From NCBI RefSeq assembly GCF_016592615.1, contig NZ_AP013043.1:540001-572000 (forward strand): a stretch of DNA of 32,000 nucleotides. Direction: 5' to 3'. Under the pieces are notes generated by a model. That model did no database searches. It was not told the origin of the DNA and worked only from the letters and a program-made list of their open reading frames with translations. The translations under genes and the position numbers were made by a program. This DNA is from Isorropodon fossajaponicum endosymbiont JTNG4. GTDB taxonomy: Bacteria; Pseudomonadota; Gammaproteobacteria; PS1; Pseudothioglobaceae. Of this stretch, positions 15,320-29,005 are shown one piece after another; within the stretch, counting starts at the first letter, position 1, and each line of letters starts with the position of its first letter.

Positions 15320-15395
15320 GGGGCGTTAGCTCAGTCGGTAGAGCATCGGACTTTTAATCCGCTGGTCGAGCGTTCAAATCGCTCACGCCCCACCA
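15320..15395 (+). tRNA. tRNA-Lys (anticodon UUU)
   Basis: 76-nt cloverleaf by hand folding. Acceptor GGGGCGT/ACGCCCC, D arm GCTC..GAGC, anticodon loop CTTTTAA, variable loop TGGTC, T arm GAGCG-TTCAAAT-CGCTC and an encoded CCA. One T-C mismatch at the base of the anticodon stem. Confidence 0.93.
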
Positions 15396-15406
15396 TATTA
15401 TTAAAG

Positions 15407-15435
15407 GCTTTCAAGCGATTGAGAGCTTTTTTTTT
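15407..15435 (+). terminator. rho-independent terminator after tRNA-Lys
   Basis: Stem GCTTTCAA (15407-15414) / TTGAGAGC (15419-15426) with one G-T pair and loop GCGA, followed by T9 (15427-15435). Confidence 0.7.
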
Positions 15436-15452
15436 CGTCTATCGGAAATATC

Positions 15453-15472
15453 TGGGCGACCATTGGGCGACC
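15453..15472 (+). repeat. two direct copies of TGGGCGACC spaced 11 bp apart
   Basis: TGGGCGACC at 15453-15461 and at 15464-15472. They are GC-rich in an AT-rich spacer, at the tRNA/island junction. Confidence 0.6.
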
Positions 15473-15605
15473 TAATATTAATTATTTGTGGTTATAGTCA
15501 GTGTATTAACTTATAGATATATTGAATTTTTCACCTTCTTTACTTGAGTATTTTTGCCAAAGGGTTTATATTGGTATTTCACTAAATACGCACTATTTTT
15601 ATACT

Positions 15606-15899
15606 ATGTTTAAATCTGGTCATTCCAAGGTAGGCGGTCGTAAGCGCGGTTCAAAGAATAAAAAAACCTTATTAGGTGCTGATGAGTTGTTGTTAAGGCT
15701 TGATATTAATCCTATTGAGAAGCTAATCAACATAGCTGAGTCTGATGAGGCATCTATAGAGCAGAAGATAAGGTGCTGGCAAGAGATATCTAAATATACA
15801 TATCCCAAACTTAAGTCACAAGAAATATTTATTGAACCAGAATCCGATATGCCAACCAGGATTGAGATTGTGGCTTATGGTGAAGACGCTCTTAATTAG
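15606..15899 (+). CDS. small basic phage-like protein (possibly terminase-small-subunit-like), function uncertain
   Basis: From ATG 15606: MFKSGHSKVGGRKRGSKNKKTLL...ISKYTYPKLKSQE. The GRKRGSKNK N-terminus and YxYPKLK motif recall small phage or satellite DNA-binding proteins, recognised from memory only. Confidence 0.45.
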   Translation: MFKSGHSKVGGRKRGSKNKKTLLGADELLLRLDINPIEKLINIAESDEASIEQKIRCWQEISKYTYPKLKSQEIFIEPESDMPTRIEIVAYGEDALN

Positions 15900-15943
15900 G
15901 TTAATATTTTAATTGATAAGGAAAAACCGCCATTATTACATCT

Positions 15944-17116
15944 CTATAAATTCTTAACTTTTCTAGCCTCAAGGTTTTCGATAATAGATAATATTGAAAG
16001 TGGTAAAAGTATATTTAAATCTCTCATTTTATAATACTCTTTCTTGATTTCAGATACAGGTAATGGCGAATCAACTCTAACCAGATTGTAAAAGTCATTC
16101 ATTTTCAACAAGATCTCATCATGCGTTTCATGCTTATCAATTAACTTATTAAGCTTCTTTCTTTTTTCCTTGTCTTGAATAGATACGATAATCATTAGCA
16201 CAAACCAAATTGTCATTATTACTAAAGAGTAGTTTAAGGTACTGTCCACTTCCATATTTTCAATATTAAAAATAGGTGTATATATTTTAACTATGTAAGG
16301 AAGTATGTAAACAAAGAGTGCAAATCCGGACCACTTAATAAAGCTTTTAAAATAAAATTTACCAGGTTTAAATACTGATTTTATAGCGGCTCTCTCCCGC
16401 TCTAATTTAGAAACGTAAAACTCAGACATCAACTCCAGCATCTCATTTTTATCTTTTTTTACACTTCCCTGTAATGCTGGATACGCTATGTCATTTATAT
16501 AATTCAATATTTCATAATCACTTAGAAGAACAATAAAGAACCTATCAATTTCTTTGTCATATATTTCAGAATCTAAATATAAATTTACGGCCTGATTAAT
16601 ACTTTCTAAATATGGAAGATGCTTAATTAAATCATTTTTAACTTTGAATTTAAAAAGAATATCATCAATTATTGGATAGTTAAAATTTGAATATATTTCG
16701 AAGCATCTCTTATACTCATCATCAGTAAATACGCTTAAATGTTCTTCGTCCTTAAACCTGATTTCACGAAATAAAATTTCAAGAAGTGTAGTTGTATTCT
16801 CAATAATTTCCAGCCCTGAATTGAAATCTTTGTAATCCAAGCTCAGGTCTTTTACTTTCTTAAAGGCAGCCCTATAAAAAGTTTCAAAAATCTTTACCCT
16901 TTGGGATTTAATTTGAAACGTATAAAATCTATCAATATCTTCATCGCCAAAGAAATCATCACTCTTTTTTAGTAGACTAGCCGGAGGCTCAATAAGAGCA
17001 GGCCAAAAGACATTCTGATATAGATATTCTTCATTCACACCCTCAAATTCGGCATATGTGCTTGCAATATTAGATATATATTCTTTTAGTCTTTCTTTAT
17101 GAGTTTTCATTATCAA
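15944..17116 (-). CDS. hypothetical membrane protein (soluble N-terminal ~260 aa, two TM helices, short C-terminal tail)
   Basis: 390 aa ORF (a more likely ATG is at 17110). TM segments WSGFALFVYILPYIVKIY and LNYSLVIMTIWFVLMIIVSI. No family recognised. It overlaps the end of the upstream gene. Confidence 0.6.
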   Translation of the reverse strand: MIMKTHKERLKEYISNIASTYAEFEGVNEEYLYQNVFWPALIEPPASLLKKSDDFFGDEDIDRFYTFQIKSQRVKIFETFYRAAFKKVKDLSLDYKDFNSGLEIIENTTTLLEILFREIRFKDEEHLSVFTDDEYKRCFEIYSNFNYPIIDDILFKFKVKNDLIKHLPYLESINQAVNLYLDSEIYDKEIDRFFIVLLSDYEILNYINDIAYPALQGSVKKDKNEMLELMSEFYVSKLERERAAIKSVFKPGKFYFKSFIKWSGFALFVYILPYIVKIYTPIFNIENMEVDSTLNYSLVIMTIWFVLMIIVSIQDKEKRKKLNKLIDKHETHDEILLKMNDFYNLVRVDSPLPVSEIKKEYYKMRDLNILLPLSILSIIENLEARKVKNL

Positions 17117-17642
17117 TTTTTGATTGGATTTTATAAATACTTTCTTTAGCCTCGCTATATATATCCTTCATGTCAATCTTGGGGATAAGCTCTAGAATTT
17201 CCTCGTAGATACTTTCATTATCTTTATTTTCATAAGACTTTTCCCAAAGCCCCAAGATGTAATCACTTTTTATCTTTGAAGATTCTGGCAATAGATACAT
17301 GCCTGTCCTCAGGATAGTTAGGCATGGAAATATTCCATTCTTATTTCGAATATTGCCTGCTGCATGGAGAATTAATGCTTCTTCACTATCGTATTTATAT
17401 CCTAGTTTTAATTTGTTTAGAATAAGCAACAAGTCACCTTCATTGTAACCAGATCCGACTTTCATGATACGAGGGGATAGACCGTAAAGTATTCCTTTGA
17501 GCAAGCACTCTTCAGTTAATTCAAATGAGATGTTGGCCTTGAAGTTTTCAAGATTATCACCCCAAATAAATCAAGGAAGGTGACCTTCAAATCCATCTGG
17601 CGTTAGATAATATTTATTCTTCTCTCCAAATGGAAGCCACAT
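17097..17642 (-). pseudogene. hypothetical protein interrupted by an in-frame TGA (or a 135-aa product starting at TTG 17504)
   Basis: ATG 17642 opens MWLPFGEKNKYYLTPDGFEGHLP, then TGA at 17571-17573. The same frame continues FIWGDNLENFKANISFELTEEC into the 135-aa track ORF (17097..17504). Confidence 0.45.
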
Positions 17643-17703
17643 CAAGGAAAAGGGTTGTAAATCATTTTTCATTCAGTAATTTATCCAAATTTAGTATATT
17701 AAT

Positions 17704-17726
17704 GAGCTACAATTATCTCTCTTATG
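17704..17726 (+). promoter_or_regulatory. conserved GAGCTACAATT (-10-like) element 10 nt upstream of ATG
   Basis: TGAGCTACAATT, then 9 pyrimidine-rich nt, then ATGAAG. There is no purine-rich SD. The same 12-mer occurs at 21327 and 27028. Confidence 0.4.
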
Positions 17727-18524
17727 AAGACACTTTTATCACTATTTATATACCTAATTATAACGCTACCTATTCAGGCGGAAGAATCGCTTACGTACAG
17801 CATAGAAAATAAATCAGAAGAGATTGTAAGAACCCTAAATGCAACCATTACAAATGTAGAGCTTTCGCCTGACTATTCATTAAGAGCAGTTTTGTATGAA
17901 TCTCAAAATGCTTTAGAGGAAGGTGCTTTGCCAGAACAAGTGTTGAAAATTGCATTGCCTGATGGGCACTTGTGGTTAAGACCTGGTGATTTGGTTAATT
18001 ATTCTAAGCTTAAGTTTTTGGATAACAGGAGTCTGACTTTAAGTCGTTGCACTTTGTTTGTGTGTGAGTCCATTATCGTTGATACGCTTGACAGAAAGGT
18101 TTTTTGGCTTGGAAAAGGTGAAGATGAAATCACTAAAAATAGCTTTATTAAGCTTACTAATGAAATGGAGCAAATCATTGAGTATAGCTCTAATAAAGAG
18201 CAATATCAATCTCCTGATAACAAGTCAAAAGTAATTTTATATCGTTCAAATAAAACACTTGAGGAAGGTGAAGTTGCAGATGCGATTCTCAACTTTACTA
18301 CTGACCATGACTCACTGTGGCTTTATGGTGGCTATGGACAGAGTTTCTATGACATTAGTTTTCTTGATAATGTTCATTTAATATTTCAGGAGTGTAATTT
18401 CTTTGTGTGTGGGTCGTTTATTTTCAACTTCCATAACAAGAAAATTACACTTCCGGGTGGCGGTAGTTTCGAGATTATCAATGATAAGCATATAAGATTA
18501 AACTATTCAAAGACTTATTCTTAG
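17724..18524 (+). CDS. secreted protein with an internal tandem domain duplication
   Basis: Signal peptide MKTLLSLFIYLIITLPIQA. Residues 48-136 and 163-251 align (SPD..LY.S...LEEG...LWL...FLDN..L...C.FFVC.S.I...EI). Confidence 0.7.
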   Translation: MKTLLSLFIYLIITLPIQAEESLTYSIENKSEEIVRTLNATITNVELSPDYSLRAVLYESQNALEEGALPEQVLKIALPDGHLWLRPGDLVNYSKLKFLDNRSLTLSRCTLFVCESIIVDTLDRKVFWLGKGEDEITKNSFIKLTNEMEQIIEYSSNKEQYQSPDNKSKVILYRSNKTLEEGEVADAILNFTTDHDSLWLYGGYGQSFYDISFLDNVHLIFQECNFFVCGSFIFNFHNKKITLPGGGSFEIINDKHIRLNYSKTYS

Positions 18525-18817
18525 ATTAAAAGATGAAGATTGGGATGGATTTGGCTGTGTAGATAACTTAAGCCCCATTCCTCTTAGCGAAATCAAACAA
18601 GAGTACGCAGATTGGTTAGGTGTCAGTCGCTACCCTGAGAGACGACCATACACACTTGATGAATTATTCCCTGCAGAAAGAGATGAGCGCTTGAAAAGAC
18701 GTGCTGAAAGATATGAAGCAAGATTAATCAGACAAATGGATGATGAAAGTGTTACATCGATAGGCAGTCGATAACCATGTCAGTATTAATAGATGGTATT
18801 CACGTCGCATCGGAGAG

Positions 18818-19183
18818 ATGTACGTAAATATGAATAACTATGATTTAATAGAAGAGTTTTTTACTAGCCAAGAACAAATTACCAAGTTCTTTGTGCGGCT
18901 AAGCACTCTTAAAATTGCCAATCCTAGCGCAACATGTATTGCATCTTTAGAAAAGAAAGGGGATTACTGGGTTTATCTACTTGAGCATTTTCCCAGTGGA
19001 AAGCATATAGGTGAAAATATTAAACCATTCAAGCCAAGCTTTGAAAATTACAATAAATTTAACAACGGATGCAAAGAATTAGCGAAAATGCTGGAGATGT
19101 ATATTGATGCCGACGATTTATCATTGATATCTATGGATTCAAAGCCATTTTCAGATTTAACCTTTGATACTAATAATGGTTAG
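18818..19183 (+). CDS. hypothetical protein
   Basis: 121 aa ORF (an alternative ATG is at 18830). No motifs recognised. Confidence 0.45.
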   Translation: MYVNMNNYDLIEEFFTSQEQITKFFVRLSTLKIANPSATCIASLEKKGDYWVYLLEHFPSGKHIGENIKPFKPSFENYNKFNNGCKELAKMLEMYIDADDLSLISMDSKPFSDLTFDTNNG

Positions 19184-20144
19184 TCAGGAAGTTTTTTAAT
19201 CTTTTACAAAAAGAATCGCTTTTCTTTGACAGTCCTATTCACGGCATTAAACACTGGCAAACTGTTGAACGTAACGCGCATCATCTTGCAAGCTTCAATA
19301 ATGCCGATACCGAGGTTTTGTCGTATTTTGCTTAAACTTCCCATGACTGTATGCGTGAAAACGAGCATAGGGATAAAGGACACGGCCCTAGAGCTGCATC
19401 ATTTGCCAAGAAACATAGGGAGTTAATACACCACTTGATGATATTCAGTTTAAGCAGTTAACTGATGCTTGTAAAGGTCATACATATGGGGAACGACCTG
19501 ACTGTATTACAATTAATACTTGTTGGGATGCAGATAGGTTAGATTTGCTACGTGTGAATATCGTGCCTGATGCTGATAGACTTCATAATGAAGAAGCCAA
19601 AAGGATTGCCAATGAAAGTGATTTCTTAGTGTTGGATGCACATAAGGCTTTAACTAAATATAAGAGAGTTGTATTTGACCTTGACCATACACTTATCGAT
19701 GAAAAAGGTGAAACAGTTAGGCCTGGTATTTATAAACTACTGACTTCACTTAAGAATAACGGCATACACTTAACCTTGTGGACTGCAAGTTTTAAAGAGC
19801 GCTCAGAGCCAATTTTAAGTAAATTAGGACTGAGTGTTTACTTTGATAAGTTCATCTACAGGAAAGACTATAACACCGACCCTAGGCGATGGATTGGTGC
19901 ACACAAAGATATTCGTAAAACAAATGGGGATTTGCTTGTAGACGATTCACGCAAGCAAGTAGATTATGTAAATTCAATAGGTCTTGCTGGTTACAAGATG
20001 ACACCCTATGCCTCGACTGAACCGTACAATAAACCTGACATGAACGAACTAGAAGAGTTACATAGAATGATACTGCCTGATGTAGAATTTACCTTGCAAA
20101 CTAATACAAGTTTGTTTAGCAAAATAACCTCGATATTCAGATGA
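19177..20144 (+). pseudogene. HD-like domain fused to an NIF/FCP1-like HAD phosphatase domain, disrupted (no start codon, in-frame TAA, frameshift)
   Basis: Phase-1 frame: SPIHGIKHWQTVERNAHHLASFNNADTEVLSYFA-TAA(19333-19335)-TSHDCMRENEHRDKGHGPRAASFAKKHRELI. Near 19430 it shifts into the frame of ORF 19545..20144: LDDIQFKQLTDACKGHTYG...TCWDADRLDLLRVNIVPDADRL, then the HAD motifs VVFDLDHTLID, LWTAS and LLVDDS. Confidence 0.6.
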
Positions 20145-20638
20145 AAAAACTACTCTTAACTTTGTTAATCTCTTTAATGTCCATGTTTTCGCATGCTGAA
20201 GATAATTGGACTATTGACGATAGTAACTGGATATATGCAAATGGCACTACGGTAAATGGCCATAAGTTTGGCTTTGCAAAGGACAAGGGTAGATGTGATG
20301 AAAACCTAATGTTTATAAGTTGGTCAACTTACTCCAATGGTCTTGAAGAATTTGAAGGGCAAGATGTGAAGGTCTATATGGATTTTGATGGCAAGGTGAC
20401 GCATGCAACACTTGATCTTATTTCTACTTATAAATTTGGAGAGATGACTTTGGCCATGTTTAGTAATGTTGTCATGCCTGAAGAGTTCTTAAACATAATA
20501 AGAAACAGTAAAAATCTTATAGTTGCTTTTTCGACCAAGAATGACTTAACTAAAGTCTTAGATATGCAAAATGATACTTTTAATATTGAAGGCTTTACTA
20601 AGGCCTTTGATAAGGCTCAAAATCAATGTATGGAATAA
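20141..20638 (+). CDS. secreted hypothetical protein
   Basis: 165 aa with signal peptide MKKLLLTLLISLMSMFSHA. ATGA overlap with the preceding reading frame. Confidence 0.65.
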   Translation: MKKLLLTLLISLMSMFSHAEDNWTIDDSNWIYANGTTVNGHKFGFAKDKGRCDENLMFISWSTYSNGLEEFEGQDVKVYMDFDGKVTHATLDLISTYKFGEMTLAMFSNVVMPEEFLNIIRNSKNLIVAFSTKNDLTKVLDMQNDTFNIEGFTKAFDKAQNQCME

Positions 20639-20700
20639 TATAAAGATAGGCTATACATCCTATGCAGATCGATTTAACACATAACTTGCATGGAGCTGTT

Positions 20701-21285
20701 CTACCACAAACATAAGAAACAACTACTTTTATCTTTTAGGGTTGTGGTCTTATCCTTATCCTTATCATTCCATTCAACATCGTCATCCCACTCATTATCA
20801 CCCCAGTTTAATCCTTTCACACCAACAGCACCTGTTTTAGTGTCAATTAGATATAAACTAAAACTACCGTTACCTGTAGCACCAGCTGTATCTCGAATGA
20901 TTCCAATAAGTTTATTTGGGTAGCCAGGTATTATAAATGTAGGAGTGTCTTTTGTATGTAGCGATACAACACCTGTACTTTCAATCCATCTGCCGTCGCC
21001 TCGAGCTGCATTTTCTTCAGACCACAACATGCCATCAAAGCCATCAATTTTAGGTGTGTGGTTTTTAGTTGAATAGAACTCACACATCATGGAGCAGCTT
21101 AATGATAATACTGATTTACCCCCGGGTTGTAAAAATACAGATACAAATTGATGTCCAGATTCTTGGTCAGCGTTGGTTATTATTGTCAGCCTATCAACTT
21201 CTTTTGTGATGAATTTACCATCAGGAGACCACGCTATTGTCGAAGTTGAAATTATTAGGCAGATTGTTAACAGTAATTTATTCAT
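20701..21285 (-). CDS. secreted hypothetical protein with an acidic W/D-rich C-terminus
   Basis: 194 aa with signal peptide MNKLLLTICLIISTSTIA. C-terminal GLNWGDNEWDDDVEWNDKDKDK. The plus-strand ORF 20690..20923 is its shadow. Confidence 0.65.
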   Translation of the reverse strand: MNKLLLTICLIISTSTIAWSPDGKFITKEVDRLTIITNADQESGHQFVSVFLQPGGKSVLSLSCSMMCEFYSTKNHTPKIDGFDGMLWSEENAARGDGRWIESTGVVSLHTKDTPTFIIPGYPNKLIGIIRDTAGATGNGSFSLYLIDTKTGAVGVKGLNWGDNEWDDDVEWNDKDKDKTTTLKDKSSCFLCLW

Positions 21286-21300
21286 AAGAAGAATTGTACC
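21283..21300 (-). promoter_or_regulatory. GGTACAATT (-10-like) element 7 nt upstream of the ATG of the minus-strand gene
   Basis: The minus strand reads GGTACAATTCTTCTTATGAAT. This is the mirror partner of the plus-strand element at 21328, and the two motifs start 36 bp apart. Confidence 0.4.
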
Positions 21301-21327
21301 AAATTGTTAGGATAAGAGATTAGATTT

Positions 21328-21347
21328 GAGCTACAATTTACCTCATG
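21328..21347 (+). promoter_or_regulatory. conserved GAGCTACAATT (-10-like) element 7 nt upstream of ATG
   Basis: TTTGAGCTACAATTTACCTCATGAAA. No SD. Confidence 0.4.
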
Positions 21348-22234
21348 AAAATAAAAATATTACTATTGTCTTTAATTCTCATTACGCAAGTTTTTGCATC
21401 TTATGCAATTGATATTAAAGATTTTAAAGTGGATTTTTCACCTTTTTATGATGGCACAAAGATTATTAAGTTAAGTACTGAAAGTGCTATTATTTATAAA
21501 GAAGAGCTATACAACATTGACATAGAGTGGACTCCTGATGATGGCCTCTCCCCAAGGCTTACAGGTGCTGCAAAAATTAACTTCCACCCAATCCAAGGCG
21601 ACTCTTTTTCAATCTTTTCAGAGGCATTTCATTTGCCAGATAGCATGCTTGATGATTTGGGAATTATAGGTAAAAATGCATGGAGTATTAATCGAGAAAT
21701 AGATTTAAAAAAACACACTCTTTCAATTACGAATCGTTAGTAAAAATATCATTAATAGATAACTCACACCAATCTTATAGTTATGCATATGACGTAACAC
21801 CGTTCTTTTTTGAAGATGTTAATTACGATGGCGAATATGAATTAGTTATTGTCAATACTAGCGCTGGACAAAGATGGGTAAACTCATATTCTATATATAA
21901 AAAAAATCAAAACAACGGGTTTATTTTGATTAATGAGGCCCCTTTTAACACCCTTGACCAACTTTCAACTTTTGACCATAAAAATAGAGCGGTGGATGTT
22001 TTTTCTTCAGGCGGGTCTTGCACTAATTCAAATAAACGATATAGGCTAATTGAAGGAAAATATATTCTTGTTGAGTTTATTGACTGGGATTATTACTCTA
22101 CTAATAATAGAATAATATGTGTCAAATCAAAATATAATGTTGTCAGCGGGGAGAGAATTCTTAAGTCTAAAGCTGAAAGTTATTGGAGTTCAGAAATACA
22201 TGATTATATTGAACTTGGGACTAAATTTTATTAA
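21345..22234 (+). pseudogene. secreted protein with an FG-GAP/VCBS-like Ca-binding-type motif, split by a frameshift at an A7 run (or sequencing error)
   Basis: ORF 21345..21740 has signal peptide MKIKILLLSLILITQVFA. A second frame is open from 21692 with no start codon until TTG 21926 (...YAYDVTPFFFEDVNYDGEYELVIVNTSAGQRW...). One extra A in A7 (21707-21713) would fuse them. Confidence 0.5.
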
Positions 22235-22300
22235 TAAAAACAAATAAAATGTAGCCACAATAACACTATAAATAATTAAAACAAAGTACTGGAAAATAAT

Positions 22301-23569
22301 ATGGAATTTGATTTAAATCTAATATATCCTACAAATTTATTAAATACGTCATTTCTAATAATCATTGCTATTATGGCGACGGCGGATTTATTTACTTATT
22401 ATTTACATAGTACACATAGGGATTTCAAATCAACAATCATATCTATAGGTGTATTAGGTACGTTTGTTGGTGTTTATATAGGATTGTCAAAATTTGATGT
22501 AAACGATATAACTGCAAGCGTGTCAATTTTATTAGAAGGCCTTAAGATAGCCTTCTACACATCAGTAGCAGGCATGTCTTTTGCCTTGTTTATTACCATC
22601 ATACAAAAGACTTTTCCTGGAAATGAAGAACTTGATGATAGTAGCATCTTACAAAGTATAAATAAAAAATTAGAAGCACTGGAAGAAATTCAAGTTAATA
22701 CCAAGCATCTTCAGACTCTACCTAATCAAATTACATCTGTTCTATTTGAAATTAGAGATTTGGTTGGAGTTAATAATGAAAAACTTTTGACAATGCTTAC
22801 AAAGGAGATGGAAGAAATAAGACTGTCTCTTGAAAAAGCCACTGAAAGCTTAGCAAAAGGCGCAACAGAAGAAATTATAAAAGCTCTGGAAGTGGTTATT
22901 TCAGATTTTAATAACAATTTAACCGAGCAGTTTGGGGATAACTTTAAACAGCTTAATGAGTCTGTTGTAAACATGATCCAGTGGCAAGAAAATTATAAAG
23001 AAACAATTGACGATTTAGAATCCAAACTAGATAAGGCAATGACAATTTTTGAAAATTCAATTGAAAAAGGTCATTTGGCGCTTAATGAAGTCTTCGAGCA
23101 GTTTAAATTAAATTCAGATACATTGATTGAGTCCAATAAAAATAGCCAGAAGCAACTTCAAAAAACTATACAAAACTCTTCAGAAGCCCTGGAAAATACT
23201 TCAGCAGTTATATCAGGACTGAAAGATGATTTTAGTTCAATATCTGATATGAGTATTAAGCTTGGTTCGATAATTGAGACTAATCAAAATCAAATCTCAA
23301 ATTTAGAGACGCATTTAGAATCTATGACGAAAGTTGGGGTAGATGCTAGAGAGATGACAAACTCTATTAAAGATTTCTCCTCTGAAGTGCAGGAATCTCT
23401 AACCTCTCAGTCAAAATCTCTATCAAAAATGACTCAAGAGTTAGATAAGCAATTGCCAGAATCTTTGGGGAAACTTAATAAATCCCTAACATCTTTAACA
23501 AATCAGTTTGCAAAAGATTATGAGAAGTTTTTAAAGCTAATGTCTAATCTTGTAAATAGCAAAGAATAA
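22301..23569 (+). CDS. MotA/ExbB/TolQ-family channel protein with a long C-terminal coiled coil (ZorA-like)
   Basis: 422 aa. Three TM helices lie within the first ~105 aa, with the family core IGVLGTFVGVYIGL...LKIAFYTSVAGMSFALFITII. Residues ~110-422 are uninterrupted heptad-like E/K/L/S/N/Q-rich helix. Confidence 0.75.
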   Translation: MEFDLNLIYPTNLLNTSFLIIIAIMATADLFTYYLHSTHRDFKSTIISIGVLGTFVGVYIGLSKFDVNDITASVSILLEGLKIAFYTSVAGMSFALFITIIQKTFPGNEELDDSSILQSINKKLEALEEIQVNTKHLQTLPNQITSVLFEIRDLVGVNNEKLLTMLTKEMEEIRLSLEKATESLAKGATEEIIKALEVVISDFNNNLTEQFGDNFKQLNESVVNMIQWQENYKETIDDLESKLDKAMTIFENSIEKGHLALNEVFEQFKLNSDTLIESNKNSQKQLQKTIQNSSEALENTSAVISGLKDDFSSISDMSIKLGSIIETNQNQISNLETHLESMTKVGVDAREMTNSIKDFSSEVQESLTSQSKSLSKMTQELDKQLPESLGKLNKSLTSLTNQFAKDYEKFLKLMSNLVNSKE

Positions 23570-23572
23570 TCT

Positions 23573-24370
23573 ATGAAAATCACCCAATTTGACGAATTAT
23601 GGACGGCAGTAAATCGGGTAAAAATCGACAAATATAGTACAACCGAAGTAAAGCAATTTTCAACAAAAGGAATAGAGAGTAATCTAGAAGATATTTTTGA
23701 CGCAAATGCAGGTGAACTGTTAACAGTCCTAAAAGATGGATCAATTAAAAAAGCCATTGTTCATGTGTCAGATATAACCAATTGGAGCTATTCAGGCTAC
23801 GCAAGAGAGCTTCCAAAATTCCATATATTTGAATGTAGTACACTTTCTCAAATGAGGAGTAATAATAGGGGTCATCGATATAAAAAAGCAGGAAGAAGTG
23901 ATGGAAAATTTTGGATAGTGCAGCTTAACGGTGGTAATTTTGAAAAATTAGATGTATGTAGAAACTGCTTAAGAACATACAATAAAAAATACAATGTATC
24001 TAAATACGGCCTAACCCCAGGAAACTTTGATTTACAAAAATATTTAAATCAAAAATTAAAACACTTACAGCCATCGATTGCCAAAGATGAGGATATGACG
24101 ACCGTTCCACAAGCTTATTCCAAGAACTGGTCAATTATCTCAAAAACTATTAAAACTAATTTTAATTACACTTGTCAAGAGTGTTACAAAGATTTAAGTC
24201 AGTATAAAAAATATTTGCACACCCATCATATAGATGCGAATAAATCTAATAACAATCATGGCAATTTAAAAGTTTTATGCATTGGCTGCCATGCAGAAGA
24301 GTTTAAGCATAGTCACATCAAATCTACTCCACAATATAAAGAGTACATACTTATGAGAGATAAAATATGA
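23573..24370 (+). CDS. HNH endonuclease with an N-terminal Cys-containing domain (ZorE-like effector candidate)
   Basis: 265 aa. HNH motif at nt 24173-24292: YTCQECYKDL...LHTHHIDANKSNNNHGNLKVLCIGCHAEE. The N-terminal domain has LPKFHIFECSTL...LDVCRNCL. It starts 3 nt after the previous stop and makes an ATGA overlap with the next gene. Confidence 0.8.
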   Translation: MKITQFDELWTAVNRVKIDKYSTTEVKQFSTKGIESNLEDIFDANAGELLTVLKDGSIKKAIVHVSDITNWSYSGYARELPKFHIFECSTLSQMRSNNRGHRYKKAGRSDGKFWIVQLNGGNFEKLDVCRNCLRTYNKKYNVSKYGLTPGNFDLQKYLNQKLKHLQPSIAKDEDMTTVPQAYSKNWSIISKTIKTNFNYTCQECYKDLSQYKKYLHTHHIDANKSNNNHGNLKVLCIGCHAEEFKHSHIKSTPQYKEYILMRDKI

Positions 24371-25236
24371 AAAACGATAGTGAATGGATGAGTATTTCTG
24401 ACATCATGTCCGGACTCATGATGGTTTTTTTGTTTATCACTGTAACCCTACTCGTTACAAAAAATGAAGAAATAAATCAAAAACAAGCTGAGATAGAAGA
24501 TCGACACCAGGATATTATTGCTCTAAAAAATGCTCAGAAATTATTGCTTGAAAGCAATGACTTGAAGATTGATATGGCAAGACTAGCCCTTGATTACTCA
24601 AGGTTAAAGCTAAAAGTAAAGAGTGACAAGAATATAGTAAATTCAATAAATGAAGAAAATCGACAATTAAAGAAAGACATTGACATCCTAAATGACAAGA
24701 TTCCCAGATTTGATAACACCCAACACAATAGAGTTTTAGAAAATATAAATAAAGCTCTACATAATGAATTTGACAATGATTTAATTAAATGGGGTGCAAC
24801 AATAAATAATGATAATTCGATTGTCTTTAACAATCCTAAAATTTATTTCGACTCAGCCTCTTCAGAAATAAAAAAAGAATTTAAAATCATATTAAATGAT
24901 TTTTTTCCACGATATATTGAGATATTCGCTAATAGTAGTTTTAGCTCTTATATAAAAAATATTAAAATAGAGGGGCATACTTCTTCAATTTGGAACTTTA
25001 ATAGAATGACTAATGGTAGACAAGAGTCGTATTTTAATCATATGGAATTGTCACAAGAGAGGGCAAATAACGTCTTGAAATTTTGCTATCTAGGTTCGTT
25101 AAAATACAGCTCTTTTCTTAAATCTAAATTAGAGAGTAGTGGGCTTTCATTTTCACAGGCTGTAATGAAAGAAGACAAGAAAGAGGATATTGATAAATCA
25201 CATAGAGTTACATTTAGATTAATATATGAGGACTGA
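24367..25236 (+). CDS. MotB-like protein: plug/TM with conserved Asp, coiled coil, OmpA-like peptidoglycan-binding C-terminus (ZorB-like)
   Basis: 289 aa. N-terminus WMSISDIMSGLMMVFLFITVTLLV (Asp12 before a single TM), a ~100 aa coiled coil, and C-terminal IVFNNPKIYFDSASSEI...IKIEGHTSS...LSQERANNVLKF...HRVTFRL. Confidence 0.75.
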   Translation: MKNDSEWMSISDIMSGLMMVFLFITVTLLVTKNEEINQKQAEIEDRHQDIIALKNAQKLLLESNDLKIDMARLALDYSRLKLKVKSDKNIVNSINEENRQLKKDIDILNDKIPRFDNTQHNRVLENINKALHNEFDNDLIKWGATINNDNSIVFNNPKIYFDSASSEIKKEFKIILNDFFPRYIEIFANSSFSSYIKNIKIEGHTSSIWNFNRMTNGRQESYFNHMELSQERANNVLKFCYLGSLKYSSFLKSKLESSGLSFSQAVMKEDKKEDIDKSHRVTFRLIYED

Positions 25237-25242
25237 TTCACA

Positions 25243-26875
25243 ATGATACAATTAAAAAATACTATTTTTATTATATGTATGGCTTATGCCGCCATATCAT
25301 CCGCCAATTTAATCAATCTTGAAATTCAAAATAATACGATTTCAATAAACTTAAAAAATAGTTATATTTCCAGTAGTCATAATGACTTGGTTGCTAATGT
25401 TAGCCCACTATTAGTAATCAAATTTAAAGATAAGCCAAGTCAATCACTTGCAATATTCTCAATAAAAAACTTATCTAATAAAAGCTTTAGCCCTTTAGAT
25501 TTAGACCAAACTATTCTTTCATTAAAAAATGGCAATTGCAGTAATAAAAATCTATGCACATCAAATAAAAATGGATCAAATATCAAGGTGTTAATACAGG
25601 GGGATGCTACATATGTGGGTAATGTTTTAGACTCTAGTAAGGCTTATAGTGGCATGAGTCAAGTGAACAATGGGGATAGGGTTAGTTTAGTTATATCAAC
25701 TCTAACAAGAGTTGGAAATATCCCGATATTAATACAATTATCAGGGAAGTATTCATCTTATAGTGATATAGAAAGTATTCAAAATACATCTAAAAATGTT
25801 ATTAATAAAATTCTTAATAGCAAGGTTCGAAAAATCTCAGGAAGTCTAAAAAAAGAAGCGAATGTTAAAAAAACAATACGCATACCAGAGGTCGCCTTTA
25901 ACAACAAAAAATCAATTGACACAATTCAACCAATTGATTTTCACAAACTCCATGCGTTATTAGGAAAGCACCAATCCTTAAACTATCTTATCAATTATTA
26001 TAAAGAGCATAATAACTATCTCAAGCTTATACCGTGGCTCGAAAAATCCTCGCAACTAGGTAACAATAAGTCTTCATGGGAGTTGTTCAAGTTGTTTAAT
26101 ACTGATGGGAATAATATCAATAAAGATATAGCCATAGCAAACCATTGGCTTAAAGTAGCATTTAAACAAGGAAACATTGAAGCGGTCCATGAGATCGGCC
26201 TTAATTTTATATACGGAATTGATGCCATCAAAGATGAAGAGTTAGGATTTAAGCTAGTGAAGCGTTCGGCTATTTCAGGGCATTATCCATCTCAATCTTA
26301 TTTAGGAATTCTTTTTCTCAAGGGGATTGGGACAGAGAAAAACAAAAAAAAAGGCGTGGGAATGGTTTGAAATTGCAGCTGAAAACAATTCAGCTTATGC
26401 CCATCAAATGTTAAAAATATCTGTAGCAAATAATGGAGGAATTCATCCTTATTACACAGAATATGCGGACTTCTGGACCTGGTATGAGAAAGGAGCTTTA
26501 GCAGGAGTTCCTATTGCACAATATGAATTTGGAGCGCGTGAAGAAGGCCGTGTTAATACAATCGTTAGAAGAACCTACGGCCCAGGATCTAAAGAATATT
26601 ACAAACAAATGTCCATAGCACTTGAATGGATTGAAAAAGCCGCCAAACAAGGAAATTCTAATGCCACAAACCATTTGAAAGATAAAATTTCTAATTTAGA
26701 AAAAAATTATGAATCTGGTAGGTATCCTAGAATTGCCGCTATGGAATTAGCCATAATGCATTTCAAAGGTTTGGGTGTTCAAAAAAATAGAGATAAGGCC
26801 GATATGTGGATTGAAAAATCTGGATATGCCAAACCCTTTTTTGGAAAATCTTTTTTAGATTCCTTTGAAGATTAA
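25243..26875 (+). pseudogene. secreted Sel1-repeat (SLR) protein split by a frameshift in an A9 tract (possible phase variation or sequencing error)
   Basis: Signal peptide MIQLKNTIFIICMAYAAISSA with Sel1 units in the C-terminal part. Frame 1 ends ...LKGIGTEKNKKKGVGMV-stop (26370). Frame 2 (26327..26875) reads ...KKKAWEWFEIAAENN, which completes the Sel1 consensus. Removing one A from A9 (26344-26352) fuses them into a protein of ~540 aa. Confidence 0.7.
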
Positions 26876-27028
26876 ATAACTTACGAGTCTTTTTCTTTTT
26901 TCATATTGGTTCGATATTTAGCTTTTAATCCAATCTAGAGTGGAAGCTAAAAAAGGGGTTTATGAATGAACAGCTTAAGCATATGCTGGACAAATTGTAC
27001 CTAACTAGCTAATCTTTCGGTTGCTTTT

Positions 27029-27049
27029 GAGCTACAATTATCACTTATG
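27029..27049 (+). promoter_or_regulatory. conserved GAGCTACAATT (-10-like) element 8 nt upstream of ATG
   Basis: TTTGAGCTACAATTATCACTTATGAAA. A mirror AATTGTACC lies 36 bp upstream (26993-27001), the same spacing as at 21292/21328. Confidence 0.4.
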
Positions 27050-27688
27050 AAACGCATACTTCCGCTACTCACTCTAATCCTTACTACTGCTCAAGCCAAT
27101 CTTGAAGCAACCTACCGAAACAACCTATTAATCAACCCAGATACTAACCAACCCTTCACAGGCAATCTAGACATCATTAACAACGACTGGGGCAAGGATG
27201 CTGTAGAGTTTAACAAAGACTATGTTGATGGCATTCTTCACGGCTATGAGAAGGTCTACTATCAATTAGGTGAGCTTAAGTCACTAGGACACTTTAATCA
27301 AGGTAAGGTTGATGGTATGGTTGAGTTGTATTATGAAGATGGCTCTATCCAGGCACAGGTTAACTTTGATAATGGTATTAGACAAGGTAGAGCTGTTAGC
27401 TACTATCCAGATGGTAGTAAGCAACTAGAACAAGTCTTTAATAATGACGTACTAGACGGTCTACATAGAACTTGGTATGAGAACGGCAAGGTAATGAAGT
27501 CAATCCCATATTCCAAAGGATTGGTTCACGGTATGGTTACTACCTATTACGAATCAGGAAGAGTGTTTGAAGAAGTAACATATGAATATGGAAAGCCTAA
27601 ATTGATGAAGGTGTATAACGAAGATGGGACGCTGGCTGATATAAAAGGGTTTTTGGATAAGAAGGTTATTGAGAGGTTTAAGCAATGA
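27047..27688 (+). CDS. secreted MORN-repeat-variant protein (YwqK-family-like)
   Basis: 213 aa with signal peptide MKRILPLLTLILTTAQA. Repeated units such as GILHGYEKVYYQLGELKS, GKVDGMVELYYEDGSIQA, GIRQGRAVSYYPDGSKQ, GLHRTWYENGKV and GLVHGMVTTYYESGRV. Confidence 0.8.
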   Translation: MKRILPLLTLILTTAQANLEATYRNNLLINPDTNQPFTGNLDIINNDWGKDAVEFNKDYVDGILHGYEKVYYQLGELKSLGHFNQGKVDGMVELYYEDGSIQAQVNFDNGIRQGRAVSYYPDGSKQLEQVFNNDVLDGLHRTWYENGKVMKSIPYSKGLVHGMVTTYYESGRVFEEVTYEYGKPKLMKVYNEDGTLADIKGFLDKKVIERFKQ

Positions 27689-28560
27689 ATAAGATACAAA
27701 CTTTATTAACAACGACAGTGTTGTTATTTGGGATAAGTGGCAGTGGTTTTGCTGGATATTCTGAAGCTAAAAAAGCATACAATATAGGAGACTTTTCAAC
27801 AGCTTTAAAAGAGTATAAGATTGGTGCGCAACAAGGTGATGTAAAGGCACAACACAATCTAGGCATTATGTATGGAAGTGGAAAAGCGGGCTCTGTAAAT
27901 AACAAAAAGGCATTCTATTGGTTCGAAAAGGCTGCTATAAATAATTTTGCGGAATCTCAAAGATCACTTGCTATCATGTATTTACAAGGAATGGGTGTTG
28001 AAGAAGACACTATTACAGGGATGTATTGGTTAAAGAAAGCTGCAAACAACAATCTTATGAATGCCCAGGCCTTATTAGGAAATATATATGCCACAAGCAA
28101 ATATGTCAAGCCAGACGCAATAAAATCAACGAGATGGCGTATTAAAGCTGCAAACCAAGGGGATCTAAAATCACAAAGAAGTGTTCATGGTGCATATAGA
28201 TTCGGATATGGCGTTACAGTGGATAAGGTAAGGTCAATAAAATTTCTAGAAGCTGCCGCTGCGCAAAATGATAAGCGCTCAATTCATGATTTAGCTATGA
28301 TTTATAAGTCCATAAACGCTGATCAATTTGGACTTATAACAGATTACAATAAAGCAAAATCTTTATTTGAAAAGGCTGCAGATCTTGGAAGTGAGGAGTC
28401 ATTAGGGGAGCTGGCAGGCATGTATATTTTTGGCATAGGTGTAGATAAAAACATGTTAAAAGCAAAAGAATTAATACAAAAAACATTACTTAGCAAGGAT
28501 GTAAAAATTCAGGAAAAGGCTCAGAAAAAGTGGGATGATTTTGAACTATGGAAATATTAA
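27685..28560 (+). CDS. secreted Sel1-repeat (SLR) protein
   Basis: 291 aa with a signal peptide. Multiple Sel1 units (AQHNLGIMYGSGKAGSVNNKKAFYWFEKAAINN, SQRSLAIMYLQGMGVEEDTITGMYWLKKAANNN ...). ATGA overlap with the MORN gene. Confidence 0.85.
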   Translation: MNKIQTLLTTTVLLFGISGSGFAGYSEAKKAYNIGDFSTALKEYKIGAQQGDVKAQHNLGIMYGSGKAGSVNNKKAFYWFEKAAINNFAESQRSLAIMYLQGMGVEEDTITGMYWLKKAANNNLMNAQALLGNIYATSKYVKPDAIKSTRWRIKAANQGDLKSQRSVHGAYRFGYGVTVDKVRSIKFLEAAAAQNDKRSIHDLAMIYKSINADQFGLITDYNKAKSLFEKAADLGSEESLGELAGMYIFGIGVDKNMLKAKELIQKTLLSKDVKIQEKAQKKWDDFELWKY

Positions 28561-28576
28561 CAAGAGAGGGGTATTC

Positions 28577-29005
28577 GTGAAAAAATTATTTTTTATTATA
28601 TTAATACTTAGTGTTGTGTCAGGATGCAAAACCACTGAAGGGTACAGACAAGTTATGGAAACTTGGATGGGACACACAGAAGTTGAACTTATAAGATCAA
28701 GAGGAGCTCCTAGTTCGACATATACTTCTGGCGGCATTAAGTTTCTTGAATACCTTAATTCATATACCACAAGCAAGAGCTACTATACTAGTTATAGTAG
28801 CTCTGGCAGCAGCAGTTATTCTTCTCCTATCGGCGGAAACACCTTTTCCTGTAAAACCACTTATGAAGTCAAAAACGGGATAATTGAAAATATAAAATGG
28901 ATTGGTAATAATTGTAAATCTAAAGAGACAGATGAGGGCAAAGATATTAAGCCAGTTAATACACAGAAAACAAACCTAAAATCATACGATGATTACACGT
29001 TCTAG
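28577..29005 (+). CDS. lipoprotein with a Ser/Tyr-rich low-complexity segment
   Basis: GTG 28577 is preceded by GAGGGG (5-nt spacer). Lipobox VKKLFFIILILSVVSGC. Low-complexity stretch SYTTSKSYYTSYSSSGSSSYSS. The track start 28535 overlaps the previous gene and lacks an SD. Confidence 0.7.
   Translation: MKKLFFIILILSVVSGCKTTEGYRQVMETWMGHTEVELIRSRGAPSSTYTSGGIKFLEYLNSYTTSKSYYTSYSSSGSSSYSSPIGGNTFSCKTTYEVKNGIIENIKWIGNNCKSKETDEGKDIKPVNTQKTNLKSYDDYTF

What the first reader, a model, noticed from the sequence alone, without database searches (positions are those of the whole stretch)
22301..25236. Intact MotA-like / HNH nuclease / MotB-like three-gene module: a permuted, compact Zorya-type candidate defence system
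Three plus-strand genes are tightly coupled, with a 3-nt gap at 23570-23572 and an ATGA overlap at 24367-24370. Gene 1 (422 aa) packs three TM helices with the MotA/ExbB/TolQ core (IGVLGTFVGVYIGL ... LKIAFYTSVAGMSFALFITII) into ~105 aa, with only an 8-residue TM1-TM2 loop, followed by ~310 aa of continuous coiled coil. Gene 3 (289 aa) has the MotB signature Asp before a single TM (SISDIMSGLMMVFLF), a ~100 aa coiled coil and an OmpA-like peptidoglycan-binding end. Gene 2 (265 aa), inserted between them, ends in a CxxC...HH...N...CxxCH HNH motif. A tailed MotA homologue plus a MotB homologue plus an HNH protein is the parts list of type II Zorya (zorA-zorB-zorE, Doron et al. 2018). Here the nuclease splits the stator pair and the channel subunit looks minimal. 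No flagellar, Ton or Tol genes are nearby, and the module sits in a tRNA-linked island. It is the only multi-gene unit in the island with no reading-frame lesion, which suggests it is under selection. I cannot tell from memory whether this order and size fall inside described Zorya diversity, so its novelty is unverified.
Basis: partly seen in the sequence, partly recalled or inferred. Interest (0 to 1): 0.85.

Follow-up and report, generated by a model that had tools for sequence, protein, structure and literature searches.

The report
Type II Zorya defence, genes reordered
These three genes are an intact type II Zorya anti-phage system (membrane motor ZorA/ZorB plus the ZorE DNA-nicking enzyme) in a deep-sea clam symbiont, ordinary in its parts but from a lineage with the last two genes swapped and an unusually long spacer in ZorB.

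Summary
Three tightly coupled plus-strand ORFs sit at 22301-23569, 23573-24370 and 24367-25236, with the stated 3-nt gap and ATGA overlap.

PADLOC profiles call them ZorA2 (1.9e-61), ZorE2 (6.7e-51) and ZorB2 (4.1e-63). ZorA and ZorB also match the solved type II ZorAB complex of Sulfuricurvum kujiense (PDB 8VVI). The window comes from the Isorropodon fossajaponicum endosymbiont JTNG4.

The "minimal" ZorA is normal for type II: about 100 residues of TM core, then a tail.

The zorA-zorE-zorB order is real and non-canonical, but not unique. All 16 closest species-level genomes share it. They form one clade in the ZorE and ZorA trees, while more distant relatives keep zorA-zorB-zorE. Published Zorya surveys filtered out non-canonical orders, so this clade is undescribed but easily detected.

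One further peculiarity is a helical, coiled-coil-like ZorB linker about 75 residues longer than usual. A small sub-clade shares it.

No fourth gene is conserved. The downstream Sel1 gene is frameshifted.

Verdict: a new, divergent member of a known system with a lineage-specific gene order. Function is inferred by homology only. Interest is low to moderate.

The parts
22301..23569 (+). zorA (422 aa): type II ZorA, with a MotA/ExbB-like TM core and a long helical cytoplasmic tail
   Evidence: PADLOC ZorA2 PDLC00638 1.9e-61. PDLC00637 (a 420-position profile) matches end to end at 5.7e-52. PDB 8VVI ZorA 1.6e-25. NCBIfam ZorA2 1.7e-44, below the equivalog cut-off.
22337..22603 (+). ZorA TM core (aa ~13-101): three hydrophobic helices, including the conserved GxxGTFxG...AFxxSxxG channel motifs
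   Evidence: Hydropathy peaks at aa 13-35, 44-64 and 82-101. G50, G53, T54, F55, G57, G61, A84, F85, S88 and G91 are conserved in at least 85% of 48 ZorA sequences. Pfam MotA_ExbB matches aa 47-105 at 20.5 bits, just under the 22.9 cut-off.
22616..23566 (+). ZorA cytoplasmic tail (aa ~106-422), helical/coiled-coil-like
   Evidence: Aligns to the 8VVI ZorA tail through aa 236 and again at aa 275-413. Weak hits to helical-repeat families (Apolipoprotein etc.). The published type II tail starts at residue 100-106.
23573..24370 (+). zorE (265 aa): short-form ZorE = DUF8245 N-terminal domain + HNH nuclease, without the C-terminal extension
   Evidence: PADLOC ZorE2 PDLC00642 6.7e-51, end to end. 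All homologues carry PF26739/DUF8245. NCBIfam ZorE 1.7e-29 covers only aa 81-252 of a 358-position profile. The published architecture is DUF8245 + HNHc, with or without a C-terminal domain.
23822..23968 (+). ZorE N-terminal Zn-type site (H84, C88, C129, C132)
   Evidence: Invariant in 19/19 aligned ZorE sequences. H84 corresponds by position to E. coli ZorE H90, which is essential for defence (the correspondence is inferred from a near-constant numbering offset).
24173..24310 (+). ZorE HNH catalytic core (C201/C204 ... H218-H219 ... N231 ... C236/C239-H240 ... H246)
   Evidence: These are invariant columns. The AF2 model (pLDDT 79.9) has a beta-beta-alpha region whose best, weak PDB matches are HNH proteins: Cap5, DotN and the Gme HNH nickase. 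They correspond at offset 7 to the E. coli ZorE residues H226, N238/L239, H247 and H253, which are essential for standalone Zorya defence.
24367..25236 (+). zorB (289 aa): type II ZorB, with an N-terminal TM helix carrying the ion-coupling Asp, an expanded helical linker and an OmpA-like peptidoglycan-binding domain
   Evidence: PADLOC ZorB2 PDLC00641 4.1e-63 in two stretches. PDB 8VVI ZorB 1.3e-29, aligning aa 5-37 and 122-241 only. Pfam OmpA 26.6 bits against a 27.2 cut-off.
24394..24462 (+). ZorB TM helix (aa ~10-32) with Asp12 (codon 24400-24402)
   Evidence: Hydropathy peak at aa 10-32. D12 is invariant in 33/33. It is equivalent to D21 in S. kujiense ZorB; the infection assays used a ZorB D24N mutant.
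24463..24714 (+). ZorB expanded periplasmic linker (aa ~33-116), predicted as two long helices
   Evidence: AF2 helices 10-62 and 65-111, with block pLDDT 68-93. The Asp-to-GHT distance is 190 against a family median of 116 (n=157). The heptad a/d hydrophobic fraction is 0.65 against a 0.375 background. Shared by L072 (281 aa), partly by L075 (253 aa) and by P0089-P0100.
24715..25233 (+). ZorB OmpA-like peptidoglycan-binding domain (aa ~117-289)
   Evidence: AF2 alpha/beta fold with pLDDT mostly 85-95. Aligns to the 8VVI ZorB periplasmic domain. G203, H204, T205, S229, Q230 and R232 are invariant.

Best explanation
This is an intact type II Zorya anti-phage system, arranged zorA-zorE-zorB and probably transcribed and translated as one coupled unit.

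The mechanism below is taken from characterised type II systems. Nothing has been shown for this locus.
1. Five ZorA subunits (three TM helices each) surround the TM helices of two ZorB subunits. Together they form an ion-driven 5:2 rotary motor in the inner membrane.
2. ZorB Asp12 is the ion-coupling residue, facing the conserved ZorA Thr54/Ser88 region.
3. The dimeric OmpA-like domain of ZorB anchors the complex to peptidoglycan.
4. The bundled ZorA C-terminal tails (about 315 residues each) project into the cytoplasm.
5. Phage-induced envelope perturbation activates the motor.
6. The tail recruits or activates ZorE, a Zn-stabilised HNH nickase. ZorE nicks DNA at the entry site, blocking phage replication and, if it also damages the chromosome, giving population-level protection.

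Two features are specific to this lineage.
- An ancestral swap placed zorE between zorA and zorB. No change of parts accompanied it, and no functional consequence is evident.
- A helical linker about 75 residues longer than usual separates the ZorB TM helix from its peptidoglycan-binding domain. I infer that it changes the reach or geometry of the wall anchor.
For: Family assignment: PADLOC gives ZorA2 1.9e-61, ZorE2 6.7e-51 and ZorB2 4.1e-63, with no hits for the neighbouring genes. NCBIfam's best hits are the type II ZorA2, ZorE and ZorB2 families. The solved type II ZorAB 8VVI matches ZorA at 1.6e-25 and ZorB at 1.3e-29.

Key residues: ZorB D12 and the GHT / SQxR motifs are invariant. The ZorA channel motifs are conserved. 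The ZorE HNH residues and two Cys/His clusters are invariant. They map onto residues shown by mutagenesis to be essential in E. coli ZorE.

Operon structure: 3-nt gap and 4-nt overlap.

Selection: dN/dS is about 0.1 or less, with dS saturated, for all three genes against L072, L073 and L075.

Gene order: A-E-B in L001-L016 and in L073-L077. The clade is monophyletic in the ZorE and ZorA NJ trees, 15/15 tips each.

Module limits: the neighbourhoods vary and no fourth gene is conserved. An integrase fragment and a primase-like gene flank relatives, as expected for a mobile defence module.

Published mechanism: 5:2 motor, Asp, peptidoglycan binding, tail requirement and ZorE nickase.
Against: - There are no experimental data for this locus or for any member of the A-E-B clade.
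- Scores are far below NCBIfam's equivalog cut-offs (152 against 700, 103 against 600, 124 against 400). Pfam MotA_ExbB, OmpA and HNH all fall under their gathering thresholds. The proteins are therefore divergent.
- The host is an intracellular, maternally transmitted clam symbiont undergoing genome reduction. Phage pressure there is uncertain, and saturated dS means recent relaxation of selection cannot be excluded.
- The long-linker sub-clade lacks the C-terminal helix found in other ZorB2 proteins. It also has His or Gln in place of the Asn of the N-x-x-L-S-x-x-R peptidoglycan-binding motif, so wall binding may be altered.
- Stoichiometry and complex formation could not be modelled.
Confidence: 0.85

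Rival explanations
1. A decaying relic. The three ORFs are still open, but the system no longer works, or is no longer needed, in this genome-reducing intracellular symbiont and is on its way to becoming a pseudogene like its neighbours.
For: The host lineage is undergoing reductive genome evolution. The adjacent Sel1 gene is frameshifted. Decayed Zorya copies exist in related loci: split zorA in L004, split zorE in L005, the deletion-fused zorE/zorB P0060 in L077 and remnants in L064. ZorB has an atypical peptidoglycan-motif residue and no C-terminal helix.
Against: All 976 codons are open in a region of about 30% GC, where chance stop codons are frequent. Every invariant catalytic and channel residue is retained. 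The atypical ZorB features are shared with L072 and L075, so they are sub-clade traits and not lesions. dN/dS is about 0.1 or less.
Confidence: 0.1
2. A four-component variant in which the downstream secreted Sel1-repeat protein (25243-26875) is a functional partner of the ZorAEB module.
For: In the nearest relative, L072, an intact 545-aa Sel1 protein starts 3 nt after zorB. In the window the homologous gene starts 6 nt after zorB.
Against: The window copy is frameshifted (frames +1 and +2) and only 39-44% identical, against about 70% for the Zor proteins. Its dN/dS is 0.35. L075 has a different downstream gene. No downstream gene is conserved in 16 A-E-B loci. There is no PADLOC hit.
Confidence: 0.03
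3. A MotAB/ExbBD-type stator working in motility, transport or envelope maintenance, with an unrelated HNH gene inserted between its subunits.
For: Weak Pfam MotA_ExbB and OmpA similarity. ZorAB proteins are homologues of these stators.
Against: Zorya-specific profiles beat the generic ones by more than 40 orders of magnitude. The long ZorA tail is Zorya-specific. The HNH protein is a bona fide ZorE (DUF8245 + HNH) and co-evolves with ZorA and ZorB, giving congruent clades. No flagellar, Ton or Tol genes are in the window.
Confidence: 0.02

Closest known systems
Type II Zorya (ZorA-ZorB-ZorE; Doron et al. 2018; structure and mechanism in Mariano et al. 2025, PMC11890865; S. kujiense ZorAB PDB 8VVI; E. 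coli ATCC 8739 system)
   Same: It has the same three protein families and domain architectures:
- ZorA with a TM core of about 100 residues plus a long tail.
- ZorB with an Asp-bearing TM helix plus an OmpA-like domain.
- ZorE with DUF8245 plus HNH.
All three genes lie on one strand and are translationally coupled. The residues shown to be essential are conserved.
   Different: - The gene order is zorA-zorE-zorB instead of zorA-zorB-zorE.
- The ZorB linker is about 75 residues longer than the family median.
- ZorB lacks the C-terminal helix and has His in place of the motif Asn.
- ZorE is the short form, without the C-terminal nuclease-like extension found in E. coli-type ZorE.
- Sequences are divergent: below NCBIfam equivalog cut-offs and about 150-170 bits on PADLOC ZorE2 models, against 300-450 bits for canonical proteobacterial ZorE.
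Canonical-order compact type II Zorya of Campylobacterota (loci L018, L019, L023; sister group in the trees)
   Same: The proteins are of similar size (ZorA about 414-417 aa, ZorE about 275-285 aa, ZorB about 227-230 aa) and this is the nearest sequence neighbour outside the A-E-B clade.
   Different: They keep the A-B-E order and a short ZorB linker.
Type I Zorya (ZorABCD; Hu et al. 2024, PMC11946911)
   Same: A homologous ZorAB 5:2 motor with a tail and a peptidoglycan-binding ZorB. The signalling concept is the same.
   Different: ZorA is much larger (an extra N-terminal and periplasmic region; the window's residue 44 aligns to about residue 113-140 of type I profiles). The effectors are ZorC and ZorD, not ZorE. 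No ZorC or ZorD is present here.
Flagellar stator MotAB and ExbBD/TolQR
   Same: A distant common ancestry: an ion-driven 5:2 architecture, a conserved Asp in the B-subunit TM helix, and an OmpA-like anchor in MotB.
   Different: Those systems have no long cytoplasmic tail and no associated nuclease. No flagellar, Ton or Tol partner genes are present here. Generic Pfam models score below threshold.

Membership tests
Type II Zorya | ZorA: MotA/ExbB-like TM core followed by a long C-terminal helical tail | tested here: met
   PADLOC ZorA2 1.9e-61, and an end-to-end match to the 420-position model PDLC00637. 8VVI ZorA 1.6e-25. Three hydrophobic helices within aa 13-101, then about 315 aa of tail.
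Type II Zorya | ZorB: single N-terminal TM helix with a conserved Asp, and a C-terminal OmpA-like peptidoglycan-binding domain | tested here: met
   PADLOC ZorB2 4.1e-63. 8VVI ZorB 1.3e-29. D12 invariant in 33/33. The AF2 model shows the OmpA-like fold at pLDDT 85-95. Caveat: the Asn of the peptidoglycan motif is His225 here.
Type II Zorya | ZorE: DUF8245 N-terminal domain plus an HNH nuclease domain | tested here: met
   PADLOC ZorE2 6.7e-51, end to end. PF26739/DUF8245 is precomputed on the identical protein P0001. HNH and Zn-site residues are invariant. The architecture is as published.
Type II Zorya | All three genes adjacent on one strand, without ZorC/D or ZorF/G | tested here: met
   Contiguous over 22301-25236 with a 3-nt gap and a 4-nt overlap. 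The neighbours give no PADLOC hits.
Type II Zorya | Canonical gene order zorA-zorB-zorE (typical of the type and used as a filter in published surveys; to my knowledge not required by PADLOC or DefenseFinder rules) | tested here: not met
   The order here is A-E-B, as in L001-L016. Hu et al. kept only zorABE and excluded non-canonical arrangements.
Type II Zorya | NCBIfam equivalog-level similarity to the E. coli-type ZorA2, ZorB2 and ZorE | tested here: not met
   152 bits against a 700 cut-off, 124 against 400 and 103 against 600. These are divergent homologues, not equivalogs by NCBI's thresholds.
Type II Zorya | ZorA5:ZorB2 complex formation | not testable with these tools
   No multimer prediction was available. 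It is inferred from homology to 8VVI.
Type II Zorya | Anti-phage activity that depends on the ZorB Asp, peptidoglycan binding, the ZorA tail and ZorE nickase activity | not testable with these tools
   This needs experiments. It has been shown only for the E. coli ATCC 8739 system.
Flagellar MotAB / ExbBD / TolQR stators | Pfam MotA_ExbB above threshold, and genomic association with flagellar, TonB or Tol-Pal genes | tested here: not met
   MotA_ExbB scores 20.5 bits against a 22.9 cut-off. No such genes are found among the window ORFs scanned.
Type I / type III Zorya | Presence of ZorC+ZorD (type I) or ZorF+ZorG (type III) | tested here: not met
   The flanking ORFs have no PADLOC hits. ZorA1 and ZorA3 models score far below ZorA2.

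The most novel reading that the evidence does not exclude
The zorA-zorE-zorB clade, and especially its long-linker sub-clade (window, L072, P0089-P0095), could be a mechanistically distinct Zorya II subtype. In this reading:
- A periplasmic ZorB coiled coil of about 80 residues holds the peptidoglycan-binding dimer several nanometres away from the ZorA collar.
- The peptidoglycan-contact motif is altered (Asn to His/Gln) and the C-terminal helix is lost.
- Together these change how the motor is plugged and how envelope perturbation is sensed.

Keeping the system intact in a maternally transmitted intracellular clam symbiont would then imply real phage pressure inside bacteriocytes, or a co-opted non-defence role.
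Probability: 0.1. Interest if true: 0.5.

Novelty: new member of a known kind. Interest (0 to 1): 0.25.

Why it matters
- **Annotation.** Proteins filed publicly as "conserved hypothetical" or "HNH endonuclease" get a confident annotation as type II Zorya.
- **Gene order.** The swapped order is not an assembly quirk. It marks a coherent lineage found in at least 16 species-level genomes: SUP05 and mussel symbionts, sponge symbionts, Sulfurospirillum, Beggiatoa-like bacteria and many 'Bdellovibrionales' MAGs. Published surveys would have discarded this lineage because they filtered for canonical order.
- **Test material for Zorya biologists.** The clade is a natural test of whether gene order matters. 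It also supplies a graded natural series of ZorB linker lengths (Asp-to-GHT distance from about 110 to 200 residues). That series could test how the distance between the motor and the wall anchor affects activation.
- **Symbiosis biology.** An intact, selectively constrained defence system in a genome-reducing intracellular symbiont is a small hint of ongoing exposure to phages or mobile elements.

None of this overturns current understanding.

Tried and rejected
- **Exact-sequence look-up of ZorE.** It found no contig. The identical protein does exist in the clustered database, which is how the host was identified.
- **Genome scan with single-protein ZorA patterns.** It found nothing. The scan with the ZorE alignment succeeded.
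- **P0060 as a natural ZorE-ZorB fusion (414 aa, DUF8245+OmpA), which would have implied physical coupling.** Rejected. Its sequence breaks off inside the HNH 'HTH' motif and resumes after the ZorB TM helix, so it is a deletion remnant.
- **A conserved fourth gene (Sel1 or other).** Rejected.
- **Carriage on phages.** No relatives were found in the viral contig collection.
- **Island boundary.** There is no repeat of the tRNA-Lys 3' end and no integrase domain, so the island limits remain undefined.
- **Fold search of the ZorE model against the PDB.** It gave only weak HNH-type matches (best E = 0.04), and no solved ZorE structure exists.
- **Promoter and terminator scan.** It found fewer promoter-like sites than the shuffled sequences and nothing informative.
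- **dN/dS.** It could only be bounded, because dS is saturated.


Full report
**1. Observation**

I read the junctions directly:
- ZorA's TAA ends at 23569 and is followed by 'tct' and then ATG at 23573.
- ATGA at 24367-24370 holds the start of gene 3 and the stop of gene 2.
- Gene 3 ends with TGA at 25236, and the next ATG is at 25243.

Hydropathy gives three hydrophobic helices in gene 1 (about aa 13-35, 44-64 and 82-101), one in gene 3 (about aa 10-32) and none in gene 2. The quoted motifs are present.

**2. What the proteins are**

- PADLOC-DB profiles give ZorA2 (PDLC00638, 1.9e-61; the 420-position model PDLC00637 aligns end to end at 5.7e-52), ZorE2 (PDLC00642, 6.7e-51, end to end) and ZorB2 (PDLC00641, 4.1e-63). 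The flanking ORFs give no hits.
- NCBIfam's best hits are likewise the type II ZorA2, ZorE and ZorB2 families. They fall far below the equivalog cut-offs: 152 against 700, 103 against 600 and 124 against 400 bits.
- Generic Pfam models (MotA_ExbB, OmpA, HNH_3) all fall just under their gathering thresholds. This is why the public records call these proteins 'conserved hypothetical' or 'HNH endonuclease'.
- Against solved structures, gene 1 matches the ZorA chain (1.6e-25) and gene 3 the ZorB chain (1.3e-29) of PDB 8VVI. 8VVI is the type II ZorAB complex of Sulfuricurvum kujiense.
- No ZorE structure has been solved. An AlphaFold2 model of gene 2 (mean pLDDT 79.9) finds only weak HNH-type structural neighbours: Cap5, DotN and the Gme HNH nickase.

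**3. Key residues**

- ZorB Asp12 is invariant in 33 of 33 homologues, as are G203-H204-T205 and S229-Q230-x-R232 of the OmpA-like domain.
- The ZorA channel motifs (G50, G53, T54, F55, G57 ... A84, F85, S88, G91) are conserved in at least 85% of 48 ZorA sequences.
- In ZorE, C201, C204, H218, H219, N231, C236, C239, H240 and H246 are invariant in 19 of 19 sequences. So is a second Cys/His cluster, H84/C88/C129/C132.
- A 2026 preprint describes ZorE as DUF8245 + HNHc, with or without a C-terminal nuclease-like domain. It shows that H90, Y189, H226, K231, N238/L239 and H247/H253 of E. coli ZorE are needed for standalone Zorya defence. At a constant offset of 7 (6 for H90), these correspond to H84, Y182, H219, K224, N231/L232 and H240/H246 here. 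The correspondence is inferred from numbering and from the invariant columns, not from a direct alignment to the E. coli protein.
- This ZorE is the short form and lacks the C-terminal extension.

**4. The 'compact, minimal' ZorA is ordinary**

Mariano et al. report that the type II complex is substantially smaller than type I. Its ZorA tail begins at residue 100 (S. kujiense, 378 aa) or 106 (E. coli, 550 aa). A TM core of about 105 residues with a tail of about 315 residues is therefore squarely type II. Relatives with the canonical order also have ZorA proteins of 414-422 aa (L019, L020, L023, L024).

**5. Source and relatives**

ZorE and ZorB are 100% identical to proteins of 'Isorropodon fossajaponicum endosymbiont JTNG4', on a contig of 1,447,997 bp. 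The intact 594-aa uvrC in the window matches the length published for clade II vesicomyid symbionts. The left half of the window is housekeeping: hisD, an EPSP-synthase-family gene, uvrC, an ABC-F gene, lysS, cmk and rpsA. tRNA-Lys follows at 15320-15395, and after it comes a stretch of lower GC made up of ORFans and Sel1/MORN repeat genes.

**6. Gene order**

A scan of one genome per species with a ZorE alignment returned 71 loci. I called ORFs in them and searched these with the three window proteins.
- All 16 closest loci have zorA-zorE-zorB. These are L001-L016, with ZorE 36-51% identical. They come from Bathymodiolus/SUP05 symbionts, sponge-associated Poriferihabitaceae and Porisulfidus, Sulfurospirillum, Albibeggiatoa, Campylobacterales and eight 'Bdellovibrionales' MAGs.
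- Among loci with one complete copy of each gene, 31 have A-B-E and 14 have A-E-B. Two Thiovulum-type loci have zorB divergently upstream of adjacent zorA-zorE.
- In midpoint-rooted neighbour-joining trees, the A-E-B tips plus the window form an exclusive clade for ZorE (15/15) and for ZorA (15/15). For ZorB, the same clade additionally includes two A-B-E Campylobacterota sequences. These are simple distance trees without support values.
- The metagenomic contigs of the closest relatives (L073, L074, L075, L077) also show A-E-B. L072 shows E-B after what is probably the 3' end of zorA.

The permutation is therefore best explained by one ancestral rearrangement inherited by a clade.

It is not described in the papers I could search. 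Hu et al. state that they excluded 'non-canonical gene arrangements' and kept only zorABE. PADLOC's ZorE2 models score this clade and its Campylobacterota sister at about 150-170 bits, against 300-450 bits for canonical proteobacterial ZorE. This suggests the clade was not among the seed sequences, yet it is detected without difficulty.

**7. The ZorB linker**

- The 8VVI alignment covers window residues 5-37 and 122-241 and skips the residues in between.
- Across 157 ZorB sequences, the distance from the TM Asp to the GHT motif has a median of 116 residues. Here it is 190. About ten 90%-identity clusters fall at 183-200, and a few intermediates at 144-162.
- The long form is shared by L072 (281 aa). 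A shorter version occurs in L075 (253 aa).
- AlphaFold2 (mean pLDDT 84.3) predicts that the TM helix continues to residue 62. A second helix follows at 65-111, a third at 117-142, and then the OmpA-like fold.
- Hydrophobic residues occupy 65% of the a/d heptad positions, against a background of 37.5%.
- I could not determine whether the two helices form a hairpin or an extended rod.
- The same sub-clade lacks the short C-terminal helix of other ZorB2 proteins. It also carries His (window, L072) or Gln (L075) where other ZorB proteins, including 8VVI, have the Asn of the N-x-x-L-S-x-x-R motif. That position corresponds to N152 of the E. coli ZorB peptidoglycan-binding quadruple mutant.

These are shared traits of the sub-clade and not lesions of this particular copy.

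**8. Integrity, selection and neighbours**

- dN/dS against L072, L073 and L075 is about 0.1 or less for all three genes, with dS saturated. This shows long-term purifying selection but says nothing about recent history in the symbiont.
- The downstream Sel1 gene (25243-26370 plus 26327-26875) is a frameshifted copy of an intact 545-aa protein that starts 3 nt after zorB in L072. It is only 39-44% identical, with dN/dS 0.35.
- L075 has a different downstream gene, and no flanking gene is conserved in 16 A-E-B loci. The module is therefore a self-contained three-gene unit.
- Relatives sit next to an integrase C-terminus (L073) and a Toprim/primase-like gene (L072), which fits mobility.
- In the window itself I found no integrase domain and no repeat of the tRNA end. 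No relatives occur in the viral contig collection.
- Decayed copies elsewhere show that the system is often lost: L004, L005, L064 and the deletion-fused P0060.

**9. Mechanism (inferred by homology; nothing is shown for this locus)**

- ZorA5:ZorB2 forms an ion-driven rotary motor.
- ZorB Asp12 packs against the ZorA Ser/Thr ring.
- ZorB is anchored to peptidoglycan.
- The bundled ZorA tails carry the activation signal into the cytoplasm and recruit ZorE.
- ZorE nicks DNA and gives population-level immunity.

The expanded linker probably changes the reach or geometry of the wall anchor. This is my inference and has no test behind it.

**10. Verdict**

This is a real, intact and divergent type II Zorya system. 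The 'compact' aspect is standard for type II. The permuted order is a genuine lineage trait that has been overlooked but is mechanistically unremarkable. The long ZorB linker is the most distinctive structural feature.

I rate it a new member of a known kind, with interest 0.25. The main residual uncertainty is whether the system is still used in an intracellular symbiont.

Noticed in passing
window 25243-26875: A secreted Sel1-repeat gene starts 6 nt after zorB and is split by a frameshift near 26327-26370 (frames +1 and +2). Its intact 545-aa homologue follows zorB by 3 nt in the nearest relative, L072. It is only 39-44% identical, with dN/dS 0.35.
   Followed up: yes
window 24367-25236 (ZorB aa 224-232 and the C-terminus); L072, L075: The long-linker ZorB sub-clade has His or Gln in place of the conserved Asn of the N-x-x-L-S-x-x-R peptidoglycan-binding motif. 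It also ends right after the last beta-strand, without the C-terminal helix of other ZorB2 proteins.
   Followed up: partly
L038 2066-6891, L043 203-4522, L042 1209-6726: Thiovulum/Campylobacterota loci show a third arrangement. In L038 and L043, zorB lies on the opposite strand upstream of adjacent zorA-zorE. In L042, zorB lies on the opposite strand about 3.9 kb upstream of zorE and no zorA was detected. ZorE is longer in L038 and L043 (381-391 aa).
   Followed up: no
L077 1756-3000 (P0060); L004 2476-3941; L005 6001-6792; L064 5657-6838: Decayed copies of A-E-B Zorya. They include a deletion fusing truncated zorE (cut inside the HNH motif) to zorB lacking its TM helix, a split zorA, a split zorE, and remnants. 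This indicates frequent loss of the system.
   Followed up: partly
L016 6908-8281: A 'Bdellovibrionales' MAG has a 457-aa ZorB with an extra C-terminal region of about 200 residues after the OmpA-like domain. Its function is unknown.
   Followed up: no
L073 2-253; L072 3981-4787: The C-terminus of a tyrosine-recombinase-like protein (HDLRH...LGH...RY) lies directly upstream of zorA in L073. A Toprim_3/DUF6291 primase-like gene lies downstream in L072. The nearest relatives therefore appear to ride on integrative mobile elements.
   Followed up: partly
window 15320-29000: The region downstream of tRNA-Lys(UUU) has lower GC (about 0.29-0.36, against 0.36-0.40 upstream). It is filled with ORFans, a NIF/HAD phosphatase-like gene (19545-20144), a MORN-repeat gene (27047-27688) and Sel1-repeat genes (27685-28560). 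No integrase domain and no att-like repeat of the tRNA 3' end are present in the window.
   Followed up: partly
window 4510-6294: uvrC is intact at 594 aa. This is the length reported for clade II vesicomyid clam symbionts, in which nucleotide excision repair is retained, and it agrees with the host assignment.
   Followed up: yes
window 23573-24370: The exact-sequence contig look-up reported this ZorE as 'not on record'. The clustered protein database nevertheless holds an identical sequence from NCBI. This is a database-coverage quirk and not biology.
   Followed up: yes
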